Part shown: positions 3,629-63,077 of the stretch, one piece after another | Layout: each line of letters begins with the position of its first letter | Numbering within the stretch: the first letter of the stretch is position 1 | Assembly: GCA_902560725.1 (NCBI GenBank) | Contig: CACEMR010000001.1 | Location: forward strand, 65,027 to 129,026 | Length of the DNA: 64,000 bases | Direction: 5' to 3' | From: an uncultured Alphaproteobacteria bacterium | GTDB lineage: Bacteria > Pseudomonadota > Alphaproteobacteria > HIMB59 > GCA-002718135 | The notes under the pieces: generated by a model | The model's database searches: none | Seen by the model: the letters and a program-made list of their open reading frames with translations, nothing else | Told to the model about the DNA's origin: nothing | Translations under genes and position numbers: made by a program

Positions 3629-4647
3629 TACTTAATATTGCCCAGCCTAATTGCTTTTTTTTGGGCTTTTATTGCCAATTCCATAACTTTTAAACAATGA
3701 GATTGATCCATTGCTGTGCTAGTTCTATCTACAACATCACTCATTAATCTCTGAAAATATGTAAGAGGCTCTTTAGAAGCATTTTTGTATTCATATTTTT
3801 TGTTATTAACTAAAAACAGATGATCTGTACCCTCTCTACCAACAATATCTACATACTTCCTTAATTCTATGTATCCTTTTGTGCCTAAAATGGTCAATCT
3901 TCCATCACCCCAATTAGGCAAGGCATCAGGTGTATACCAGTCTACCCTAATATAACCTCTCCCCTTATCCCCATGAATTAAAATTTCACCAAAATCTTCA
4001 AACTTATTATGTTTGGGATTTGAAAAATTTCCTGTTGATGAATTTATAATTTCTACATTTTTAGATCCAGTAAAAAATAAAAATTGATCTATTTGGTGTG
4101 ATGCAATATCACATAATATACCACCGTATTGATTATAATCAAAAAACCAATCAGGTCGAGTTTGAATGTTCAATCTATGAGGCCCCATTCCAATTGTTTG
4201 AATAACATCTCCAATTTCGCCCGCTTGAATCAAATCATAGGCTACTTGGACCGAGGGTACTTCAAATCTTTCAGAAAAATCAATTGAAAAAATTTTTCCT
4301 GTTTTTTTTATAGTATTTTCAATTTCTTTAAGTTGTTCTAAACTTGTACAACCAGGCTTATCTAACATTACATCTTTTCCAGCATTCATACATTCAATAG
4401 CTAAAGCTGATCTTTTAACAGGGATGTCTGCTATCAATACTAATTCAATTTCTTTATTTTTTAATAAATCATCTTTATTTTTAAAGCGGGGTATATCAGG
4501 ATGTTTTTTAATAAAATCTTCTGTAATATTGTTATCAGTTTCATTCCACCAACCAACACATTCACATCCCAAATTTAACATACCATTTAATTGTCCAAAA
4601 ATGTGCCTATGCTCAACACCCATTGCAGCTACTTTAATTTTTCTCAT
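3628..4647 (-). CDS. Gfo/Idh/MocA-like oxidoreductase (atypical N-terminal nucleotide motif)
   Basis: MLDKPG (EKP-like) and GGILCDIASHQIDQF C-terminal domain pattern. The N-terminus reads VAAMGVEHRH instead of the canonical GxGxxG. Confidence 0.7.
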   Translation of the reverse strand: MRKIKVAAMGVEHRHIFGQLNGMLNLGCECVGWWNETDNNITEDFIKKHPDIPRFKNKDDLLKNKEIELVLIADIPVKRSALAIECMNAGKDVMLDKPGCTSLEQLKEIENTIKKTGKIFSIDFSERFEVPSVQVAYDLIQAGEIGDVIQTIGMGPHRLNIQTRPDWFFDYNQYGGILCDIASHQIDQFLFFTGSKNVEIINSSTGNFSNPKHNKFEDFGEILIHGDKGRGYIRVDWYTPDALPNWGDGRLTILGTKGYIELRKYVDIVGREGTDHLFLVNNKKYEYKNASKEPLTYFQRLMSDVVDRTSTAMDQSHCLKVMELAIKAQKKAIRLGNIK

Positions 4648-46861: not shown

Positions 46862-47626
46862 ATGCAAAATTTTATTAATATAAATAAATTTATAGATATT
46901 GTAAATTTAGGTTTTTTTACTTCTAAGGGAGGAATTTCTAAAGGTGATTTTAATTCTTTAAATTGCAGCAAAAGTAATGATGATAAAAAAAATAATGTAT
47001 CAAAAAATATTAAAATAGCAATTAATGCACTTGGCATAGAAAAGAAGAGGTTAAAATTAATTAATCAAATACACTCAAATAAAATATTTTTTGTCAATAA
47101 TAATAATTTAAATAAAGATATTTACGGGGATGGATTAATTACTGAAAATAAAAATATTGCATTGGGTATATTAACTGCAGACTGTGCGCCAATATTTATT
47201 TTTGATAAGAAAAAAAGTATTGTTTGTTGTCTTCATTCTGGCTGGAAGGGGGCTTTAAATAATATTGTAAGTAAAGGAATTAAAAAAATTAAAAGAAAAA
47301 AAATAAAAAGTCAAAATATTATTGTAATAGTTGGACCATGTTTGGGGTTTAATAATTTTGAAGTTGATAAAAAATTCAAATTAAAATTTATAAAAAAAAA
47401 TAAATCGTACCAAAAATTCTTTAAATCAAAAAATCGTAATAAGGATATATTTGATCTACGTAATCTTATTAACTTCCAAATTAGCAAAGAAGGGATAAAT
47501 AATGTGTTTAATATAAGAAAGGATACCTATAAAAATAGTCATATTTTTTTTAGTCACAGAAGAGCAACTCATCAAAATAAGATTCAAACTGGCAGAATGA
47601 TAAATATCATCTCTTTAAGAGATTAA
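46862..47626 (+). CDS. pgeF: YfiH/PgeF family (purine nucleoside phosphorylase / peptidoglycan editing factor)
   Basis: LTADCAPI, HSGWKG and FFSHRR motifs. Confidence 0.8.
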   Translation: MQNFININKFIDIVNLGFFTSKGGISKGDFNSLNCSKSNDDKKNNVSKNIKIAINALGIEKKRLKLINQIHSNKIFFVNNNNLNKDIYGDGLITENKNIALGILTADCAPIFIFDKKKSIVCCLHSGWKGALNNIVSKGIKKIKRKKIKSQNIIVIVGPCLGFNNFEVDKKFKLKFIKKNKSYQKFFKSKNRNKDIFDLRNLINFQISKEGINNVFNIRKDTYKNSHIFFSHRRATHQNKIQTGRMINIISLRD

Positions 47627-53649: not shown

Positions 53650-54102
53650 ATGCGTATTGCCTTATTTGAACCTGACATACCTCAGAATGCTGGAAATATT
53701 TTTCGCCTTGGTGCCTGTCTCGGTATTCCTATAGATATTATTGAGCCAGCGGGATTCGTAATAGATGATAAAAGATTAAAAAGAGCATCAATGGATTACT
53801 ATGATTATTTAGATCTTACAAAGCATGTAAGTTGGGAAAAATTTTATGAATGGTCAAAAAAAAATTCATTCCAACTCATTCTACTCACAACCAAAAGTCA
53901 AAAAAGTTATTACGATTATAAATTTCAAGCTAAAGATATTATTTTATTTGGCAGAGAAAGTGCTGGTGTACCAGATTATGTTCATGAAGCAGTTGATGAG
54001 CGATTAACAATTCCTATGATAAAAGGTCCAAGGTCGATCAACTTAAGTAGTTCTGTTTCAATGGTTGCAGGTGAAATGATTAGGCAATTAAAATCAAGAT
54101 AA
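53650..54102 (+). CDS. trmL: tRNA (cytidine/uridine-2'-O)-methyltransferase, SpoU/TrmL type
   Basis: 150 aa SPOUT core (NAGNIFRLGA, LFGRESAGVP, RSINLSSSV). Confidence 0.8.
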   Translation: MRIALFEPDIPQNAGNIFRLGACLGIPIDIIEPAGFVIDDKRLKRASMDYYDYLDLTKHVSWEKFYEWSKKNSFQLILLTTKSQKSYYDYKFQAKDIILFGRESAGVPDYVHEAVDERLTIPMIKGPRSINLSSSVSMVAGEMIRQLKSR

Positions 54103-54951
54103 TGTCCCCATTTTACCATCTTGATAATCCATCATAGCTTTTTTAATTTCACCTTCAGAATTTGCAACAAAAGGTCCGTAACGCGCAACTGGTTCATTGA
54201 GAGGTTGACCTGCCAATACTAGATAAGAGCCTTCTTCAGATATTGAAGTAAGTTGAACATCATCACTTGATTGATCAAAGAAAATCATATCACCCTTATT
54301 TGCTATTTTTTCTGAGTTAGAAAACTGTAATTGTCCGTCAATAATATAGATCATTAAAATTTGTTCTTTATCAACTTTAAACTTTGTCATATCAGGTTTT
54401 GAAAATTGAATATCAAAAATCGAAACAGGTGAGTAGGTTTGAACTTTTGATTTAATTCCTTTTATTTCACCAACCAGTACTTTAATTTTTATATTATTAT
54501 TTTCTGAAACTGTTGGAATTGTCTCTTTTTTAATATGTTGATACCAAGGTTTAACTTTTTTATTTTTTTGTGGCAGATTTACCCAAATCTGTAAACCTTG
54601 CATAACTCCACCACTCTTCTTAAATTTTTCGGTTACTAATTCAGAATGAATTAAACCTGAGCCAGTAGTCATCCACTGTACATCACCAGTTTCAATCTCT
54701 GCTTGTCCACCAAAAGAGTCGCGATGTTCTACTTCACCGCCAAGCATGTAAGTAATTGCCTCAAAACCACAATGTGGATGAGCCGGAACTCCACTTGCTC
54801 CTCCAGGTTCATAATTTATTGGACCAAAATGATCAAAAAGAAGAAATGGATCATTTTCTCTCATACCAGGAACAGGAAAGGCTCTGGTTACAGGTATTCC
54901 ATCACCTTCAAAAGTCTTCATACATTCTTTGATTTCAATTATTTTTCTCAT
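54094..54951 (-). CDS. pirin family protein
   Basis: HPHCGFEAITYML and HRDS.G cupin metal motifs; 285 aa. Confidence 0.85.
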   Translation of the reverse strand: MRKIIEIKECMKTFEGDGIPVTRAFPVPGMRENDPFLLFDHFGPINYEPGGASGVPAHPHCGFEAITYMLGGEVEHRDSFGGQAEIETGDVQWMTTGSGLIHSELVTEKFKKSGGVMQGLQIWVNLPQKNKKVKPWYQHIKKETIPTVSENNNIKIKVLVGEIKGIKSKVQTYSPVSIFDIQFSKPDMTKFKVDKEQILMIYIIDGQLQFSNSEKIANKGDMIFFDQSSDDVQLTSISEEGSYLVLAGQPLNEPVARYGPFVANSEGEIKKAMMDYQDGKMGTLS

Positions 54952-54988
54952 AAATTTATTTTAAAATCTTACTTTTATAGATATAGGT

Positions 54989-55078
54989 ATGAATATGAAA
55001 AATCAAAATCCAGAACCACCAAAGTGCGGATGTAGTTGTAGCTGTTGCTGTACTTGTGAAGGTGGAGGGTGTTGTTAA
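54989..55078 (+). CDS. candidate 29-aa cysteine-rich peptide (9 Cys; metallothionein-like), absent from the supplied ORF track
   Basis: My own translation of 54989-55078 is MNMKNQNPEPPKCGCSCSCCCTCEGGGCC*. Nine in-frame TGY codons sit in a locally G+C-enriched patch of an otherwise AT-rich 167-nt spacer, and the stop codon lies in the loop of a 9-bp hairpin. The SD is weak, and there is an alternative ATG at 54995. Confidence 0.45.
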   Translation: MNMKNQNPEPPKCGCSCSCCCTCEGGGCC

Positions 55079-55090
55079 ATTAACACCCTC
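55065..55090 (+). terminator. stem-loop whose loop contains the micro-ORF stop codon, between convergent genes
   Basis: GAGGGTGTT (55065-55073) pairs perfectly with AACACCCTC (55082-55090) around an 8-nt loop. The downstream sequence is A/T-rich but not a clean U-run. It may serve both the micro-ORF and the convergent znuA. Confidence 0.4.
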
Positions 55091-55118
55091 AATTTAAATT
55101 TTATATTTAAAATAATTA

Positions 55119-56258
55119 CTAACAGCCTTTAAGCTCATCTCCAAGATTTGTTATCAACTTAAAATAAAGAGATTTATTTGAGTCAATATTAGCACCTAGA
55201 GGATCAAAGACACCTGTTTTGATATTCATATCCTCAGCTATTGTTGTAATTATCTTTGGATTGAACTGTGGTTCAGAGAATATACATTTTATTCCTCTAT
55301 CCTTAATTACATCCTGAATATCAGCAATCTGTTTAGCGCCTGGTAAAACATCAGTGTTTAACGTAAGTGCTCCAGCTGCTCTAACACCAAATCTTTCTTC
55401 AAAGTATTGGTAAGCATCATGGAAGACAACAAACTTAGCATCTTTATTTATACCTTTGTCAATATCATTAACAAGTTGATCAAGTGATTGAATTGTTGCT
55501 TTTGCATTAGCCTCATATTTATCTTTGTTTGCTGGATCTAAATCACCTAACTCATGAGCAATTTCATGAACCATTTCTTTAGCATTCATTGGATCTAACC
55601 ATATGTGAGCATCAAACTCTCCATGATTGTGACCTTCGTGTCCAGCATGATCGTCGTGGTCATCATGGTCATCATGATCATCGTGGTCATCATGATCATC
55701 ATGGTCATCATGATCATCGTGGTCATCATGATCATCATGGTCATCATGATCATCGTGGTCATCGTGGTCATCGTGGTCATCATGGTCGTCGTGGTCATCG
55801 TGGTCATCATGGTCATCATGATCATCATGGTCATCATGATCGTCGTGGTCATCGTGGTCATCATGGTCGTCGTGGTCTTCAAAAATTGATTCTTCTCTAA
55901 ATTTTAATTTATTAATACTTTCAATTTCCATAAACTCAACAACTTCAGCATTTTTAACAATAGACTCAAGTGGTCTCTCCATAAAAGTTTCGATACCTTC
56001 TCCTATCCAAAAAATTATGTCAGCTTCTTCAAGAAGTTTTGCGTGTGAAGGTTTTAATGTAAAACTATGCGGAGAAGTGCTGCCTTCAATTATAAGTGCA
56101 GGCTCTCCCACGCCGTCCATTACATTTGCAATCAGTGAGTGAAGGGGTTTAATTGTAGTAACAACTTTTAACTCTGCTCTGGCAGAGGAAGTTGATACTA
56201 GAATTGCTGAAAAAAATACGATTTTTAAAAACATTAAAAAAAAGTTGTGTTGTCTCAT
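55119..56258 (-). CDS. znuA: zinc ABC transporter substrate-binding protein with a hyper-extended Asp/His loop
   Basis: Signal peptide and cluster-9 SBP motifs (PHSFTLKP, AHIWLDP, VFHDAYQYF, FSEPQF). Divergent from znuCB-zur. Confidence 0.9.
   Translation of the reverse strand: MRQHNFFLMFLKIVFFSAILVSTSSARAELKVVTTIKPLHSLIANVMDGVGEPALIIEGSTSPHSFTLKPSHAKLLEEADIIFWIGEGIETFMERPLESIVKNAEVVEFMEIESINKLKFREESIFEDHDDHDDHDDHDDHDDHDDHDDHDDHDDHDDHDDHDDHDDHDDHDDHDDHDDHDDHDDHDDHDDHDDHDDHDDHDDHAGHEGHNHGEFDAHIWLDPMNAKEMVHEIAHELGDLDPANKDKYEANAKATIQSLDQLVNDIDKGINKDAKFVVFHDAYQYFEERFGVRAAGALTLNTDVLPGAKQIADIQDVIKDRGIKCIFSEPQFNPKIITTIAEDMNIKTGVFDPLGANIDSNKSLYFKLITNLGDELKGC
55647..55877 (-). repeat. 231-bp in-frame tandem repeat of 9-nt period (25.7 units) encoding (DHD)n inside znuA
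   Basis: I parsed it unit by unit: plus-strand units are ATG/GTG-ATC/GTC-ATC/GTC. Two perfect adjacent 36-nt super-units lie at 55674-55709 and 55710-55745. Together they encode 77 consecutive D/H residues. Confidence 0.95.
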
Positions 56259-56297
56259 AAAAAGTGTTCCTATAAATAATTAAGTCTGTTAATGACC

Positions 56298-56315
56298 GTA
56301 ATGTTATAATATTAC
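56298..56315. promoter_or_regulatory. putative Zur box overlapping an extended -10 in the znuA/znuC divergent promoter region
   Basis: GTAATGTTA|TAATATTAC is an 18-bp palindrome with 8 of 9 positions matched per half. It contains TGtTATAAT (56302-56310), a perfect extended -10 for the plus-strand znuC. The zur gene lies in the same locus. Confidence 0.55.
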
Positions 56316-56337
56316 ATATCATAATGTAAATAGAAAA

Positions 56338-57081
56338 ATGAGTGAAAAAAACAATTTGTTGGTAAAATTAGAAAACGGAGGAATTTTCAAATCGTCTAAA
56401 TGGTTAGTTAGAGGTGTGTCCTTAGAAATAAATAAAGGTCAAATTGTAACTTTAATTGGTCCAAACGGATCTGGAAAAACGACAACAGCTAAAATGGTAT
56501 TGGATATTCTTTCTCCTGATGAAGGAGTAATGAAAAGTTTTACAAAGAAGGTGGCTTATGTTCCTCAAAAAATTAGTATTGATTGGACATTGCCTCTTCG
56601 TGTCATAGACTTTATGCAATTAACAAGTAAACTTAGTCAAAATGAAATTATTGAGTCCTTAAGTTTAACTGGTGTAGAACAACTACTTTACAATCAAATA
56701 CATAATTTATCAGGTGGAGAGTTTCAGCGCGTCCTAATTGCAAGAGCCGTTGCTAAGAAACCTGAATTTTTAGTTTTAGATGAACCTGTACAGGGAGTTG
56801 ATTTTAATGGAGAAATTGCTCTTTATGATCTTATTAAAAAAATATCTTCAACACTCAATTGTGGTATTTTATTAATATCACATGATCTACATTTTGTGAT
56901 GTCAGCAACAGATCATGTAATTTGTTTAAATGGACATATTTGCTGTTCTGGAACACCAAGTGCAGTGGTAAAAGATTCTGCTTATATTGAGTTATTTGGT
57001 GAGCATAGATCAAAAACTTTAGCATATTACCAACATGATCATGATCATTCACACGAAACTGATGGAAGTGTAGTTAATTAA
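56338..57081 (+). CDS. znuC: zinc ABC transporter ATP-binding protein
   Basis: GPNGSGKTT, LSGGEFQR, LVLDEP and a His-rich C-terminus (YYQHDHDHSHE). Confidence 0.9.
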   Translation: MSEKNNLLVKLENGGIFKSSKWLVRGVSLEINKGQIVTLIGPNGSGKTTTAKMVLDILSPDEGVMKSFTKKVAYVPQKISIDWTLPLRVIDFMQLTSKLSQNEIIESLSLTGVEQLLYNQIHNLSGGEFQRVLIARAVAKKPEFLVLDEPVQGVDFNGEIALYDLIKKISSTLNCGILLISHDLHFVMSATDHVICLNGHICCSGTPSAVVKDSAYIELFGEHRSKTLAYYQHDHDHSHETDGSVVN

Positions 57082-57884
57082 TGTTTGATGATTTTTTTAT
57101 AAGGGCGCTTGTAGCTGGTATAGGAATAGCTATTGTCGTTGGTCCCCTTGGATGCTTTGTTATATGGAGAAGATTATCATATTTTGGTGATACTTTATCT
57201 CACTCAGCATTATTGGGAGTGACACTTGCTTATTCGTTTAGTTTAAATATTTCTTTATCTGTTTTTATAATATCTGCAGTTGTAGCATTACTTCTGATTA
57301 ATTTACAAAAAAGAACCAAATTAGCTGGAGACTCTTTACTGGGGCTTTTAGCTCACTCTACATTAGCTATTGGTTTGGTTTTAATTGGTTTTTTATCTTA
57401 CATTCGTTTTGATCTTATGGGTTTATTGTTTGGTGATATTCTAGCCGTAACAATAGAAGATATTGCTTTAGTTTGGGTTGGTGGTTTTGTTATTTTAGGA
57501 ATTTTATATTTTATTTGGAAGTCGCTATTTTCAGCAACTGTTAATTATGATCTATCTGCAGCAGAGGGTATGAAGCCTGAAGTTTCAAATTTCATATTTA
57601 CTCTTCTATTAGCAGGAGTAATTGCTCTTTCAATAAAAATGATAGGTGCCTTATTAATTACAGGGTTACTTTTAATTCCAGCAGCAACGGCAAGAAATAT
57701 TAGCAATAGTCCAAATCAAATGGTTTTTTTAGCAACTTTAGTTGGTATTATATCAGTAATTGCCGGTTTGTTTACTTCATTAGAACTTAACACATCTTCA
57801 GGCCCTACAATCATTGTAGTTGCCTTGATACTATTTATTGTATCTTTGGTGCCACTTGAAATTAAGGGTCAGTTGCAAAAATGA
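57081..57884 (+). CDS. znuB: zinc ABC transporter permease
   Basis: 267 aa, TM-rich ABC-3 family pattern. 1-nt overlap with znuC. Confidence 0.9.
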   Translation: MFDDFFIRALVAGIGIAIVVGPLGCFVIWRRLSYFGDTLSHSALLGVTLAYSFSLNISLSVFIISAVVALLLINLQKRTKLAGDSLLGLLAHSTLAIGLVLIGFLSYIRFDLMGLLFGDILAVTIEDIALVWVGGFVILGILYFIWKSLFSATVNYDLSAAEGMKPEVSNFIFTLLLAGVIALSIKMIGALLITGLLLIPAATARNISNSPNQMVFLATLVGIISVIAGLFTSLELNTSSGPTIIVVALILFIVSLVPLEIKGQLQK

Positions 57885-57906
57885 TAACAATTTGGTAATT
57901 TAAATT

Positions 57907-58311
57907 ATGACTTTAGAATCATCTAACTTAACTAAAAACCAACAAACAGTTCTTAATATTTTAGAAAAATCAACAGAACCTCTAAAAGCATATGCTATTC
58001 TTTTTGATATTCAAAAAAAAGGAATAAAATCTCCACTTCAAGTTTACCGAGCGCTAGATAAATTAATTGAGATTGGCAAAGTACACAAAATAGAAAGTAG
58101 AAATTCTTACATAGCTTGTAAGCATGAGGGTTGTAACGCTAAAACTTCTACTGCTTTTTTGATCTGTGAAAAATGTGATAACGTTACTGAGTTAAAAAGA
58201 AATAATTTATTAAGCTATTTTTCAAAACAAGCTGAAAAAGATAATTTTCAATACAGAAAACATAATTTAGAAATTTATGGATTATGTAATAATTGTAAAC
58301 TTAAAAATTAA
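57907..58311 (+). CDS. zur: Fur-family zinc uptake regulator
   Basis: 134 aa with a winged-helix N-terminal domain and two CxxC pairs (CEKC, CNNC). Last gene of znuCB-zur. Confidence 0.75.
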   Translation: MTLESSNLTKNQQTVLNILEKSTEPLKAYAILFDIQKKGIKSPLQVYRALDKLIEIGKVHKIESRNSYIACKHEGCNAKTSTAFLICEKCDNVTELKRNNLLSYFSKQAEKDNFQYRKHNLEIYGLCNNCKLKN

Positions 58312-59099
58312 TTAATTAAATTATCAATTTTATTTAAACATTTATTTAAACCAAGCTCATATTTCGTCCTTATAAAATGCTCTTTAATTATTTCTACCCA
58401 CTTAAACTTTTGTTGATTTTGATGAGATGCATAAAAACAATTTAAAGTATAAGGCATATTAAACATTTTTAATATTTCTTGCCTGATGACATCATTTGTT
58501 AAAATAGAGAGAGATTCATGAATATATTTTTCAACTATTTTTTGATCACTTAATGTAACTTTGGGTATTTCAAAAAGACCGAGAAATCTAAAATATCTAT
58601 AAATTCTTAAATAATCCTCTTTGATTCTATCTTCGATTTCTCCAATAAATTTTATTTTTTTTTCTCTCAAATGTGATTGGCCATCATAATAATCATATAA
58701 TTTATTGTTACCTCCAAGATAAAGAGCATTAAATGTAAAATCTCTTCTTGCTGCATCTTTTTTCCAATCAGTTGTATAAATGACGTTTGTGTGTCGTCCA
58801 AGCTGATTTACATCTTCACGTAAGGTTGTTATTTGTATTTTTTTATTTAAAGGATATGAAATTATAGATCCATATTGAATAGCAAAGTCATCGTATTCAA
58901 TATTATTATTTTCTAATAAATTTAAAACTTCTTTTGGTTCAATTTTAGTAGCAGTATCGATATCCTTGACTTCTCTATGCATTAATTTATCTCTAATACA
59001 GCCTCCCACTAACCTAATATCAGCACTATTTTTTTCAAAAATTGAAAATAATAGTTTTACATGGTTTGTATTTAATAAATCAGTAACATTATTATTCAT
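58308..59099 (-). CDS. cca: class II tRNA nucleotidyltransferase (CCA-adding / poly(A) polymerase family), short 263-aa form
   Basis: Head-domain motifs GGCIRDKLMHREVKDIDTAT (motif A), ARRDFTFNAL (motif B/C) and EDYLRIYRYFRF (motif D). The ORF ends soon afterwards. Confidence 0.7.
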   Translation of the reverse strand: MNNNVTDLLNTNHVKLLFSIFEKNSADIRLVGGCIRDKLMHREVKDIDTATKIEPKEVLNLLENNNIEYDDFAIQYGSIISYPLNKKIQITTLREDVNQLGRHTNVIYTTDWKKDAARRDFTFNALYLGGNNKLYDYYDGQSHLREKKIKFIGEIEDRIKEDYLRIYRYFRFLGLFEIPKVTLSDQKIVEKYIHESLSILTNDVIRQEILKMFNMPYTLNCFYASHQNQQKFKWVEIIKEHFIRTKYELGLNKCLNKIDNLIN

Positions 59100-61114: not shown

Positions 61115-61349
61115 TAAATCCATTGCGTATATTTTAGTTTTTTTAATAAAATCATACCAATTATTAATTTCTCCTCTTCTAGGACAGAACTGTAGATATT
61201 TACCTACTTGTTCAGAGTATTCAGCACAATCAATTCGAGAACATGGAGTCATTAAGGGAATAGCTTTATCTTTAAAAAGAATTTCTAAGTGTCATCCTTG
61301 GGGAAGTCATGGATATGATCCTGTTCCAAAAAAAGTTGAAGAAAAATAA
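61107..61349 (+). CDS. yidD: membrane protein insertion efficiency factor
   Basis: YQLLISPLLGQNCRYLPTCSEY and HPWGSHGYDPVP motifs. Confidence 0.9.
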   Translation: MISKSIAYILVFLIKSYQLLISPLLGQNCRYLPTCSEYSAQSIREHGVIKGIALSLKRISKCHPWGSHGYDPVPKKVEEK

Positions 61350-63077
61350 TGAACGAACAAAAAAATTTATATTTAGCAATAGGCATATCCATAGCAATAA
61401 TAATTTTTTTTCAAATTTTATTACCAAGCCAACCAATTCAACCGCCTTCTGAAAAAAGTAATGAGGTTTTAGAACCTGCAACTTCAATCGATGAAAAAAA
61501 CAATGAAAATGTTAAAGAAATAAAAACTAGGGAAGAAATAATAAACGAAAGTCAGAGGGTCTCATTTAAAAATACATCTATAGAAGGATCAATAAACTTA
61601 AAAGGTGGAATACTTGATGATCTTATATTATCAAAATACAAAACAAGTTTAGACACTAGTTCAAATAATATTCAATTATTATTACCAGATGGAACTTCAA
61701 ATCCTTATTATATCGAGACTGGATGGAAAGAACTTAAGGATTCAAATATTGATTTACCAAATCTGGATACATTATGGGAAACAAATTCACCAACATTAAG
61801 CTCTTCAAGCCCTGTTACTTTAACCTGGACTAATAAGCAAAACATAACTTTTAAGATTAATTATTCTATTGATGATGAATATATGTTTTCAATTACTCAA
61901 GAGATCATAAACAATAGTAATAATAGAATTGAAGTATTCCCTTATCGATTAATTAAAAGAATCAATACACCTGAAACAATTAATTTTTTTATTCTTCATG
62001 AAGGTTTGATTAGTCTTATTAACGATGAACTTTTAGAAAAAAATTATGATGATTTAGCAGATGATTGCACATCCTCATTACAAACAAACAAAACTTTTTG
62101 TGATAACAAATCAAAAGGTGGTTGGTTAGGTTTTACGGATAAGTATTGGATGTCTGTTTTGATACCAGACGCTGATCAATCTATTAACGTAAATTACCGT
62201 CACAGTAATAATGGAAGGGATAATTATAGAGCAGGCTATGTTGGTCAAATTTATGATATCATGCCAAATAGTAGCCTAAAATATGATGGTAAATTATTTG
62301 TTGGTGCAAAAAAACTAGATATTTTAAGTTCTTACGCTGATAATTTATCTATTCCTAGATTCACTGATGCAATTGATTGGGGATGGTTTAGTTTTTTAAC
62401 AAAACCGGTTTCTTATGCAATTAATTGGTTTTATGGATATGCAGGAAATTTTGGTTTAGCAATTATCGCATTTACAATTTTAATGAGATTAATACTTTTT
62501 TCCTCTTGCACAAGCTTCATTCAAATCAATGGCAAAAATGAAAAAATTACAACCAGATATGCAAAGATTAAAAGAGACATATCCAAATGATAGACAAAAA
62601 ATGCAACAGGAACTAATGGCACTTTATAAAAGAGAGGGTGCAAATCCAGTAGCAGGATGTTTACCTATACTTGTACAAATACCAATATTTTTCTCGTTAT
62701 ATAAAGTTTTATTTGTAACAATCGAAATGTATCATGCGCCATTCTATGGTTGGATAAATGACTTATCAGCACCAGACCCTCTAGGCCTAATGACTTTATT
62801 TGGAATATTTCCTTGGGATGTACCTCCATTATTATCTATTATTGATATTGGAATTTTGCCAATATTTATGGGTTTTACAATGTGGCTTCAGCAAAAATTA
62901 AATCCTGCTCCCGCTGATCCTACACAAGCAAGAATTTTTGCTATGCTTCCTTTTGTGTTTACTTTTGTTTTAGCTGGATTTGCAGCAGGATTAGTTTTGT
63001 ATTGGTCAGTAAATAATATTTTATCAATAGCTCAACAATGGGTCATTCAAAGAAAAATTTTAGCCAAAGATGGCTAG
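61349..63077 (+). CDS. yidC: membrane protein insertase YidC, interrupted by a +1 frameshift in a T6 run (ORFs 61349-62590 and 62529-63077)
   Basis: The N-terminal ORF carries TM1 and the periplasmic domain up to ...FTILMRLILF. The second frame continues PLAQASFKSMAKMKKLQPDMQRLKETY..DRQKMQQELMALYKREGANP..GCLPILVQIPIFF, the conserved YidC core. Deleting one T at 62496-62501 restores a single ~575-aa protein. Confidence 0.85.

What the first reader, a model, noticed from the sequence alone, without database searches (positions are those of the whole stretch)
54989..55090. Unannotated 29-codon ORF encoding nine cysteines, with its stop codon in a hairpin loop, next to the zinc-uptake locus
Seen: the largest non-coding gap in the window (54952-55118) contains ATG AAT ATG AAA AAT CAA AAT CCA GAA CCA CCA AAG TGC GGA TGT AGT TGT AGC TGT TGC TGT ACT TGT GAA GGT GGA GGG TGT TGT TAA. 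This translates to MNMKNQNPEPPKCGCSCSCCCTCEGGGCC. All nine TGY triplets are in one frame, in a locally G+C-enriched patch. The last four sense codons form the 5' arm of a perfect 9-bp stem (55065-55073 / 55082-55090), and the stop codon lies in its loop. The ORF diverges from the pirin gene (37-nt spacer) and converges on znuA, whose product carries a 77-residue Asp/His loop. Established: C-x-C and C-C clusters with Gly/Ser/Thr spacers are the signature of metallothioneins. Known bacterial metallothioneins (the SmtA/BmtA type) are about twice this size and also use His. Inference: this is a candidate ultra-small metallothionein-like or metal-buffering peptide, possibly tied to Zn homeostasis. 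Alternatives: a Cys-codon-rich leader peptide whose translation controls the hairpin and hence antisense read-through into znuA; a RiPP-like precursor, although no maturase is nearby; or a chance ORF.
Basis: partly seen in the sequence, partly recalled or inferred. Interest (0 to 1): 0.78.

Follow-up and report, generated by a model that had tools for sequence, protein, structure and literature searches.

The report
Tiny cysteine-rich peptide gene beside zinc importer
An unannotated 27-codon gene encoding a peptide that is one-third cysteine is strongly conserved and always sits at the end of the zinc-uptake gene cluster in a group of abundant ocean bacteria, so it is probably a miniature metallothionein-like metal-binding peptide, although metal binding has not been tested.

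Summary
The ORF is real, and it is a gene. It is present in all 58 related single-cell genomes whose pirin is at least 88% identical, and in 48 metagenome loci. That gives 103 full copies, 53 DNA haplotypes and 20 peptide variants. Change is overwhelmingly synonymous (pN/pS 0.065). Eight of nine Cys codons toggle TGT/TGC, while Cys is kept in about 99.8% of cells.

The conserved start is the second ATG (54995), which gives 27 aa: MKNQNPxPPKCGCSCSCCCTCEGG[G/D]CC.

The gene does not belong with pirin. Its upstream neighbour is pirin, murJ or something else. It is always convergent with the last gene of the znuA operon, and it moves, inverts and disappears together with the znuA / znuCB-zur block.

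The hairpin is the gene's own intrinsic terminator, built from its last codons. It occurs only where znuA directly abuts.

No Pfam, NCBIfam, PDB, Rfam or literature match exists. A HMMER scan of 1.84 billion proteins found only mis-called copies of the same peptide.

Best reading: a new, very small, all-thiolate metallothionein-like peptide of the zinc module in HIMB59/AEGEAN-169-type bacteria. Coding status is near-certain. Metal binding and regulation are inferred only.

The parts
54995..55078 (+). Coding sequence of the 27-aa Cys-rich peptide MKNQNPEPPKCGCSCSCCCTCEGGGCC plus stop (conserved start codon)
   Evidence: Found in 58 related genomes and 48 metagenome loci. pN/pS is 0.065. Segregating sites by codon position are 6/4/19. 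Start codon variants are ATG, GTG and TTG.
54989..54994 (+).
   Evidence: This ATG is replaced by ATC, ATA, ATT or GAA in many relatives, while the rest of the gene is conserved.
54982..54987 (+). TATAGG hexamer 7 nt before the start codon; candidate -10 element of a leaderless or near-leaderless transcript (inference)
   Evidence: A TAnnnn hexamer lies 5-8 nt before the start codon in all upstream contexts. There is no Shine-Dalgarno sequence in the murJ context. No consensus sigma-70 promoter was found by the simple scan.
55065..55090 (+). Hairpin whose 5' arm is made of codons 24-27, with the stop codon in the loop; intrinsic terminator of the peptide gene
   Evidence: dG -20.1 kcal/mol, z -4.3. 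Picked up by the terminator scan. In other lineages it is a longer two-tier hairpin followed by a run of four or five T. It is absent where p84 or DUF1636 lies downstream.
55091..55118 (+). A/T-rich tail after the hairpin and the spacer to the znuA stop codon
55119..56258 (-). znuA, the periplasmic zinc-binding protein with an Asp/His repeat loop; always convergent with the peptide gene, directly or through an inserted cassette
   Evidence: Pfam ZnuA, E = 5e-58. Synteny.
56298..56315 (.). Zur-box-like palindrome GTAATGTTATAATATTAC in the znuA/znuC divergent promoter region
   Evidence: It is the only match to the full palindrome in the window at up to 3 mismatches. A similar palindrome appears at the same place in L216 and L252 (output).
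56338..57884 (+). znuC and znuB (ABC ATPase and permease)
   Evidence: ORFs. Conserved in the block across loci.
57907..58311 (+). zur (Fur-family zinc uptake regulator), the last gene of the block
   Evidence: Pfam FUR, E = 4e-10. Sister clades join pirin directly to the next gene (PolyA_pol/CCA-type, 58308-59099) and lack the whole block.

Best explanation
The locus 54995-55078 is a genuine, independently transcribed gene for a 27-residue cytoplasmic peptide. The peptide has a short, hydrophilic, Pro-rich N-terminus (MKNQNPxPPK) followed by a 17-residue core with nine cysteines (CGCSCSCCCTCEGGxCC).

The most likely function is that of a minimal, thiolate-only, metallothionein-like peptide. 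The nine thiolates would wrap one small metal cluster, by analogy a Zn3/Cd3-Cys9 cluster like the beta-domain of animal metallothioneins, or a Cu(I)4-6 cluster. The peptide would buffer or bank zinc (or co-imported cadmium or copper) delivered to the cytoplasm by the ZnuABC importer encoded next to it.

It is a fixed part of a movable zinc module: [peptide ->][<- (DUF1636)(p84)(WD40)(COG0523) znuA][znuC znuB zur ->].

In the window, transcription ends at a hairpin built from the gene's own last codons.

Shown: the gene is under purifying selection as a protein, its linkage to the zinc module is invariant, its composition fits the definition of a metallothionein, and no relatives are known.

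Inferred: metal binding, which metal, stoichiometry, leaderless transcription and regulation.
For: 1. It codes for protein.
- Among 60 copies collected without reference to the peptide (found through pirin), there are 28-29 DNA haplotypes. Mean pS is 0.326, mean pN is 0.021 and pN/pS is 0.065.
- Segregating sites by codon position are 6/4/19.
- In the Cys codons, 8 of 9 third positions are polymorphic against 1 of 18 first and second positions.
- Over 103 copies there are 53 haplotypes but only 20 peptides. The start codon varies only among ATG, GTG and TTG, apart from one ATA.

2. It is linked to the zinc module and not to pirin.
- In 47 of the 48 metagenome loci the downstream convergent gene is the last gene of the znuA operon: znuA in 34, p84 in 11, DUF1636 in 2. 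The 48th contig ends right after the peptide gene. The upstream gene is pirin, murJ or other.
- Sister clades with pirin at 86% identity or less join pirin directly to the PolyA_pol/CCA gene and lack the whole block, peptide included.
- The block is inverted as a unit relative to pirin in L069-type genomes.
- The unforced ends of the peptide stay nearly invariant while znuA falls to 67-70% identity.

3. Composition. The peptide is 33% Cys in C-X-C, CCC and CC motifs, with no His, no aromatic residue and no hydrophobic segment (sequence). Nine-Cys domains bind Zn3/Cd3, and CCC motifs participate fully in Cu(I) clusters (PMC13107397).

4. Precedent. In the marine cyanobacterium Synechococcus WH8102 one Zur sensor controls both znuABC and a metallothionein, which allows zinc banking (PMC9337993).

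5. It has its own terminator.

6. No co-directional gene lies downstream, and no maturase lies within about 10 kb.
Against: - There is no experimental evidence of transcription, translation or metal binding.
- No Zur box, or any other recognisable operator, lies upstream of the peptide gene.
- No consensus promoter or Shine-Dalgarno sequence is found.
- No sequence homology links it to any known metallothionein family. Pfam gives 0 hits at E <= 1. BLASTP against the Neurospora Cu-metallothionein shows only compositional similarity, E = 0.1 (one search is not relevant here).
- Synteny with an importer fits a store or buffer, but it fits a chaperone or a small-protein regulator of the transporter equally well.
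- A few copies are damaged: L048 has a 1-nt deletion, one metagenome copy has a stop at codon 4, and there is one C->F and one C->Y change.
- The metagenome set was collected with a pattern that forces the CGCSCSCCC core. Conservation of that stretch counts only in the genome set.
Confidence: 0.6

Rival explanations
1. It is a small metal-sensing regulatory or chaperone peptide, not a store. The Cys cluster binds zinc, and the loaded or empty peptide modulates ZnuBC, Zur or the COG0523 GTPase, or hands zinc to client proteins. This would resemble small proteins such as MntS or MgtS, which tune metal transporters.
For: The gene is strictly co-inherited with the importer and regulator genes, not with efflux or detoxification genes. 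The non-Cys N-terminus NPNPPK is also conserved, which suggests a protein-protein contact surface. A COG0523 metallochaperone cassette is often inserted right next to it.
Against: Nothing distinguishes this reading from storage or buffering at the sequence level. The peptide is present with or without the COG0523 cassette. Nine cysteines in 17 residues is more than a simple sensor site needs.
Confidence: 0.17
2. It is a precursor of a ribosomally made, post-translationally modified peptide, such as a thiazole/oxazole-type, lanthipeptide-type or chalkophore/zincophore-type product. The Cys/Ser/Thr core would be modified by enzymes encoded elsewhere in the genome.
For: The core CGCSCSCCCTC consists almost wholly of residues that can be heterocyclised or cross-linked. 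Runs of Cys with Ser/Thr occur in such precursors (my own knowledge, not tested here).
Against: All genes within about 10 kb are housekeeping or zinc genes: cytochrome bc1, SpoU, pirin, znuABC, zur, PolyA_pol, panC, yidC and others. The only constant neighbour across contexts is the zinc module. The possible leader is only 10 residues long. No exporter or protease is nearby. The host genomes are streamlined.
Confidence: 0.07
3. It is a Cys-codon-rich leader peptide. Its translation would control formation of the overlapping hairpin, and so control antisense read-through into znuA.
For: In the window and in other znuA-adjacent loci, the terminator's 5' arm is made of the last codons and the stop codon lies in the loop. 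A ribosome at the stop codon would therefore mask the hairpin.
Against: About one third of family members (p84 or DUF1636 downstream, Asp codon GAT at position 25) have no hairpin at all, yet they keep the peptide unchanged. No co-directional gene is ever downstream. Non-Cys residues are under purifying selection as well. There is no alternative anti-terminator pairing. The ESEG variants break the outer stem without compensating changes.
Confidence: 0.04
4. It is a chance ORF, or a conserved non-coding RNA or DNA element.
For: The ORF is short, is unannotated in the source records, and has no database match.
Against: Variation has a period of three, with pN/pS of 0.065. Start and stop are conserved over 53 haplotypes. 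The flanking spacer is far more variable: 24 of 43 spacer columns vary, against 14 of 81 ORF columns. There is no Rfam match.
Confidence: 0.01

Closest known systems
Bacterial metallothioneins of the BmtA/SmtA type (cyanobacteria, Pseudomonas; Pfam PF02069)
   Same: Both are small cytoplasmic Cys-rich peptides of bacteria tied to zinc homeostasis. In marine Synechococcus the same Zur sensor governs znuABC and bmtA, and this allows zinc banking (PMC9337993).
   Different: BmtA/SmtA proteins are about twice as long. They use His as well as Cys and fold around a zinc-finger-like core that binds 3-4 Zn (PMC10612145). The present peptide has no His, gives no Pfam match, and is physically embedded in the znu locus.
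Beta-domain of vertebrate metallothioneins (nine Cys, about 30 residues)
   Same: Both have nine cysteines in about 30 residues, use only thiolate ligands and contain C-X-C motifs. The beta-domain forms Zn3Cys9 or Cd3Cys9 clusters and can also hold Cu(I) clusters (PMC13107397).
   Different: The beta-domain is one half of a two-domain eukaryotic protein. There is no sequence homology, and the CCC and terminal CC motifs and the spacing differ.
Fungal family-I copper metallothioneins (Neurospora crassa, Agaricus bisporus; seven Cys) and Yarrowia MT with a CCC motif
   Same: All are stand-alone peptides of very small size with CGCS / CSCS-type motifs. In Yarrowia MT all three cysteines of the CCC motif take part in Cu(I) binding (PMC13107397).
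   Different: They are eukaryotic and copper-induced, and bind about 6 Cu(I) with 7 Cys. BLASTP against the Neurospora sequence (which I recalled from memory) gives only compositional matches, E = 0.1. They have no link to zinc importers.
MymT, the mycobacterial copper metallothionein
   Same: It is a small bacterial Cys-rich cytoplasmic metal-sequestering peptide that is unrelated to BmtA (PMC10612145; PMC11672702).
   Different: It is copper-specific, regulated by a copper sensor, longer, and actinobacterial. No sequence comparison was run here.

Membership tests
Metallothionein (operational definition) | Low molecular mass (well under 10 kDa) | tested here: met
   27 residues, counted from the conserved start codon.
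Metallothionein (operational definition) | High Cys content arranged in C-X-C, C-C or CCC motifs | tested here: met
   9 Cys in 27 residues (33%): C-G-C-S-C-S-C-C-C-T-C ... C-C. The Cys residues are kept in about 99.8% of 927 cells.
Metallothionein (operational definition) | Few or no aromatic residues | tested here: met
   The consensus has no Phe, Tyr, Trp or His. F and Y appear only as singleton Cys replacements.
Metallothionein (operational definition) | Binds several metal ions in metal-thiolate clusters | not testable with these tools
   This needs ESI-MS, UV or CD titration of the peptide with Zn, Cd and Cu.
Metallothionein (operational definition) | Expression responds to metal status | tested here: inconclusive
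   The gene lies in the znu-zur block, but no Zur-box-like site is upstream of it. No expression data were available.
BmtA/SmtA bacterial metallothionein (Pfam PF02069) | Match to the family profile | tested here: not met
   Pfam-A scan gave 0 families at E <= 1. NCBIfam gave 0 at E <= 10. PDB sequence search gave 0 at E <= 10.
BmtA/SmtA bacterial metallothionein (Pfam PF02069) | Mixed Cys/His ligand set and a length of about 50-56 residues | tested here: not met
   The peptide has no His and is 27 residues long. Family properties are taken from PMC10612145.
RiPP precursor peptide | Gene clustered with a modifying enzyme, protease or exporter | tested here: not met
   No such gene lies within about 10 kb in the window. 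Across 47 loci the only constant neighbour is the zinc module.
RiPP precursor peptide | Recognisable leader peptide, usually at least 20 residues | tested here: not met
   Only 10 residues precede the first Cys.
Transcription-attenuation leader peptide | Co-directional regulated gene downstream of the terminator | tested here: not met
   The downstream gene is always convergent: znuA, p84 or DUF1636.
Transcription-attenuation leader peptide | Terminator and anti-terminator structures conserved together with the ORF | tested here: not met
   The hairpin is absent from the p84- and DUF1636-adjacent members.
Intrinsic (rho-independent) terminator (for the hairpin only) | GC-rich stem-loop followed by a T-rich tract on the transcribed strand | tested here: met
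   Window: 10-bp stem followed by AATTTAAATTTTAT. Other lineages: a two-tier stem followed by TTTTT.

The most novel reading that the evidence does not exclude
This is a previously unrecognised family of the smallest known bacterial metallothioneins: 27 residues, nine thiolates and a single cluster. It is hard-wired into the ZnuABC-Zur zinc module of HIMB59/AEGEAN-169-type bacterioplankton. It would give abundant oligotrophic heterotrophs a way to bank or buffer scarce zinc (and to handle cadmium), and so would add an unaccounted biological sink to marine Zn/Cd cycling.
Probability: 0.5. Interest if true: 0.75.

Novelty: new variant of a known kind. Interest (0 to 1): 0.62.

Why it matters
Metallothioneins are known in few bacterial groups, mainly cyanobacteria, pseudomonads and mycobacteria. 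None is known in the streamlined heterotrophs that dominate the open ocean, where zinc is picomolar and cadmium behaves like a nutrient.

A 27-residue metal-thiolate peptide that is co-inherited with the high-affinity zinc importer would show how these cells hold on to imported zinc. It would be a minimal natural model of a single M3S9-type cluster. It also illustrates how functional genes below annotation length thresholds are missed: in public protein sets this peptide exists only as mis-extended, unnamed ORF calls.

The hypothesis can be tested directly with a synthetic peptide and with existing marine metatranscriptomes and metaproteomes.

Tried and rejected
- **Family and structure libraries.** Pfam, NCBIfam, PDB-sequence and Rfam searches of the peptide or region found nothing meaningful.
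- **Direct protein search.** A 40-aa over-extended form, and an exhaustive HMMER scan of 1.84 billion representatives, found only the same peptide as mis-called ORFs, plus one unrelated 465-aa Cys-repeat protein.
- **Literature.** A search for the string CGCSCSCCC and for a metallothionein in SAR11/HIMB59 found nothing relevant.
- **Generic Cys-spacing pattern.** The pattern C-x-C-x-C-x-C-C-C-x-C on viral contigs returned only low-complexity TG-rich repeats and was abandoned. About 60% of hits to the more specific metagenome pattern were also unrelated Cys-rich repeats.
- **Zur box upstream of the peptide.** None was found. An everted ATAACA-A-TGTTAT palindrome overlaps the start codon in some murJ-context loci, but it is not conserved in other contexts and I dropped it.
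- **Shine-Dalgarno sequence.** The 'AGG' upstream in the window looked like one, but it is absent in the murJ and other contexts. It is better read as part of a -10-like hexamer.
- **Functional link to pirin.** Rejected, because the peptide occurs next to murJ or other genes while keeping the znu neighbour.
- **Structure prediction.** Not attempted. The peptide is below the length limit, and metal-cluster peptides are not modelled meaningfully without the metal.

Full report
**1. Observation**

An ORF at 54989-55078 (+) encodes MNMKNQNPEPPKCGCSCSCCCTCEGGGCC. It lies in the 167-nt gap between the start of a pirin gene (54094-54951, minus strand; Pfam Pirin and Pirin_C) and the stop of znuA (55119-56258, minus strand; Pfam ZnuA, E = 5e-58). 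It is the only ORF in the 64-kb window with at least 5 Cys at a density of at least 20%.

The hairpin is real. It has a 10-bp stem at 55065-55074 / 55081-55090 with the stop codon in the loop. Folding gives dG -20.1 kcal/mol, z = -4.3, and 0 of 200 shuffles fold as well. The terminator scan flags it on the + strand.

Next to znuA lie znuC, znuB and a Fur-family regulator, zur. The znuA/znuC intergenic region carries a Zur-box-like palindrome at 56298-56315.

**2. Is it a gene?**

I used the pirin protein to fetch 80 loci from species-representative genomes. The closest are single-cell genomes of uncultured marine Alphaproteobacteria. More distant hits carry HIMB59, Pelagibacteraceae or MarineAlpha labels, so the organism is a HIMB59/AEGEAN-169-type bacterium.

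tblastn finds the peptide next to pirin in all 58 loci whose pirin is at least 88% identical. The alignment and codon tables give the following for 60 copies:
- There are 28-29 DNA haplotypes.
- Eight of nine Cys codons toggle TGT/TGC, the Ser codons toggle AGT/AGC, and the Gly and Pro codons vary at the third position.
- Only one Cys is ever replaced.
- Mean pS is 0.326, mean pN is 0.021, and pN/pS is 0.065.
- Segregating sites by codon position are 6/4/19.
- Cys codons vary at 1 of 18 first and second positions, against 8 of 9 third positions.
- The spacer upstream is much more variable than the ORF: 24 of 43 spacer columns against 14 of 81 ORF columns.

This is the signature of purifying selection on a protein. 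A chance ORF or an RNA element would not give it.

The first ATG (54989) is not conserved. The second (54995) is conserved, or is replaced by GTG (L014, L207) or TTG (the L205 group). The product is therefore 27 aa: MKNQNPxPPKCGCSCSCCCTCEGG[G/D]CC.

**3. What does it belong to?**

Three lines of evidence show that the gene belongs to the zinc module and not to pirin.

(a) In relatives the DNA between the peptide and znuA is variable. The peptide either abuts znuA, as in the window, or a cassette is inserted. The cassette holds a COG0523/CobW GTPase, a WD40 beta-propeller and an 84-aa protein with no Pfam hit, with or without a DUF1636 gene. All of these are co-directional with znuA. The peptide gene is always convergent with the last gene of that operon.

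(b) In sister clades (pirin 86% identical or less) pirin is joined directly to the PolyA_pol/CCA-type gene that follows zur in the window. The whole block [peptide, znuA..., znuC, znuB, zur] is therefore an insertion or deletion as a unit.

(c) A metagenome scan with a degenerate pattern for CGCSCSCCC gave 48 family loci. In all 47 with downstream sequence, the convergent neighbour is znuA (34), p84 (11) or DUF1636 (2). The upstream neighbour is pirin, murJ or something else.

In addition, L064/L069/L072-type genomes have the block inverted relative to pirin. They are about 86% identical in nucleotide sequence to metagenome loci that carry murJ-peptide-znuA.

Over all 103 full copies there are 53 haplotypes but only 20 peptide variants. 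The unforced parts (N-terminus; T-C-E; terminal C-C) stay almost invariant while znuA drops to 67-70% identity. One caveat applies: the metagenome pattern forces the nine-residue core, so conservation of that stretch counts only in the genome set.

**4. The hairpin**

In znuA-adjacent loci from other lineages the structure is a longer two-tier hairpin, GAAGGTGGA-GGGTGTT-loop(stop)-AACACCC-...-TCCACC. It is followed by a run of four or five T, which makes it a canonical intrinsic terminator on the peptide's strand. The window keeps only the inner stem.

Where p84 or DUF1636 is downstream, codon 25 is GAT (Asp) instead of GGG. No hairpin exists there (z = -1.5), yet the peptide is otherwise unchanged.

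The hairpin is therefore the gene's own terminator, economically overlapped with its last codons. It marks the gene as a separate transcription unit and is not a conserved regulatory device.

**5. Expression signals (inference only)**

- The simple scan finds no consensus sigma-70 promoter.
- No Zur-box-like site lies upstream.
- A TAnnnn hexamer sits 5-8 nt before the start codon in every upstream context. Most contexts lack a Shine-Dalgarno sequence. This is compatible with a leaderless or near-leaderless mRNA, but in such A+T-rich DNA the evidence is weak.

**6. Function**

The peptide has no signal sequence and no hydrophobic segment. It is 33% Cys in C-X-C, CCC and CC motifs and has no His or aromatic residues. 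These are the compositional criteria of a metallothionein.

Nine-Cys domains of about 30 residues form Zn3Cys9 or Cd3Cys9 clusters, or Cu(I) clusters. CCC motifs take full part in Cu(I) binding (PMC13107397).

Known bacterial metallothioneins are the SmtA/BmtA type (longer, with His ligands and a zinc-finger-like fold) and the mycobacterial copper protein MymT (PMC10612145; PMC11672702).

In the marine cyanobacterium Synechococcus WH8102, Zur represses znuABC and activates a metallothionein gene, which lets the cell bank zinc (PMC9337993). That is the functional precedent for pairing an importer with a thiolate store.

I therefore propose that the peptide buffers or stores zinc, and possibly cadmium or copper, brought in by ZnuABC.

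- Shown: coding status, selection, synteny, composition.
- Inferred: metal binding, metal identity, stoichiometry, regulation.

**7. Rivals**

- **Zinc-dependent small-protein regulator or chaperone** acting on the importer, Zur or COG0523. Sequence cannot separate this from storage (about 0.17).
- **RiPP precursor.** This is disfavoured. There is no maturase, exporter or protease within about 10 kb, the only constant neighbour is the zinc module, and the leader would be only 10 residues.
- **Attenuation leader.** This is disfavoured. No co-directional gene lies downstream, the hairpin is missing in a third of members, and the non-Cys residues are conserved.
- **Chance ORF or RNA element.** Rejected.

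**8. Novelty**

There is no Pfam, NCBIfam, PDB or Rfam match. An exhaustive HMMER scan of 1.84 billion cluster representatives returns only eight mis-extended, unnamed copies of the same peptide and one unrelated repeat protein. No paper in the library contains the core sequence, and none describes a metallothionein in this lineage. BLASTP against the Neurospora Cu-metallothionein, whose sequence I recalled from memory, shows only compositional similarity.

It is therefore a new family. It fits the operationally defined and polyphyletic class of metallothioneins. It is unusual for its size (about half of BmtA), its thiolate-only ligand set, and its fixed place in the zinc-uptake module. I classify it as a new variant of a known kind.

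**9. Verdict**

- Confidence that it is a translated, selected gene is about 0.95.
- Confidence that it acts as a metallothionein-like zinc (or Cd/Cu) buffer or store is about 0.6.
- Interest is 0.62.

Noticed in passing
window 55587-55919 (inside znuA); L011 121-1038; L023 440-1513: The Asp/His loop of ZnuA is a 9-nt tandem repeat of about 24 units. Its length differs between related genomes (379 aa in the window, 357 aa in L023). In L011-type genomes the DNA upstream of the C-terminal ZnuA lobe stays open and encodes at least 100 residues of non-repetitive sequence with no Pfam match, followed by only a short His-rich stretch.
   Followed up: partly
L023 1585-3855; L011 1110-3809 (between znuA and the peptide in relatives; absent from the window): A variable cassette is co-directional with znuA. 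It holds a COG0523/CobW GTPase, a WD40 beta-propeller protein, and an 84-aa protein with a CHEPDCPP motif and no Pfam hit, with or without a DUF1636 protein. It is probably an optional zinc-limitation extension of the znuA operon.
   Followed up: partly
window 61349-63077: yidC appears split into two overlapping ORFs in different frames: 61349-62590 (YidC periplasmic domain) and 62529-63077 (60KD_IMP domain). This suggests a frameshift or a sequencing or assembly error.
   Followed up: no
window 56298-56315: A near-perfect palindrome, GTAATGTTATAATATTAC, lies between the divergent znuA and znuC genes. It is a likely Zur operator, and similar palindromes occur at the same place in L216 and L252. 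No copy lies upstream of the peptide gene.
   Followed up: partly
window 54952-58307 versus L056, L060, L066, L073, L076 and L064, L069, L072: The whole block from the peptide gene to zur is absent between pirin and the PolyA_pol/CCA gene in sister clades. It is inverted relative to pirin in others, so it behaves as a small flexible genomic island.
   Followed up: yes
P0004 (ENA metagenome contig, 1079 nt): A called 65-aa protein fuses the first 20 codons of the 84-aa cassette protein to the spacer and the peptide gene. This is either a chimeric assembly or a local rearrangement at an 'LIS' microhomology.
   Followed up: no
L048 about 3886-3960; L234; one metagenome copy of the L205 group; L044: A few copies of the peptide gene look damaged. 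L048 has a 1-nt deletion that removes the terminal CC. L234 has an ATA start codon. One copy has TAA at codon 4. L044 has C11F plus E22K. These are either sequencing errors in single-cell or metagenome assemblies, or occasional pseudogenes.
   Followed up: no
window 46862-47626: A Cu-oxidase_4 (multi-copper polyphenol oxidoreductase/laccase-like, YfiH-type) gene lies about 8 kb upstream. It is probably unrelated housekeeping. I mention it only because it carries a copper-related name.
   Followed up: no
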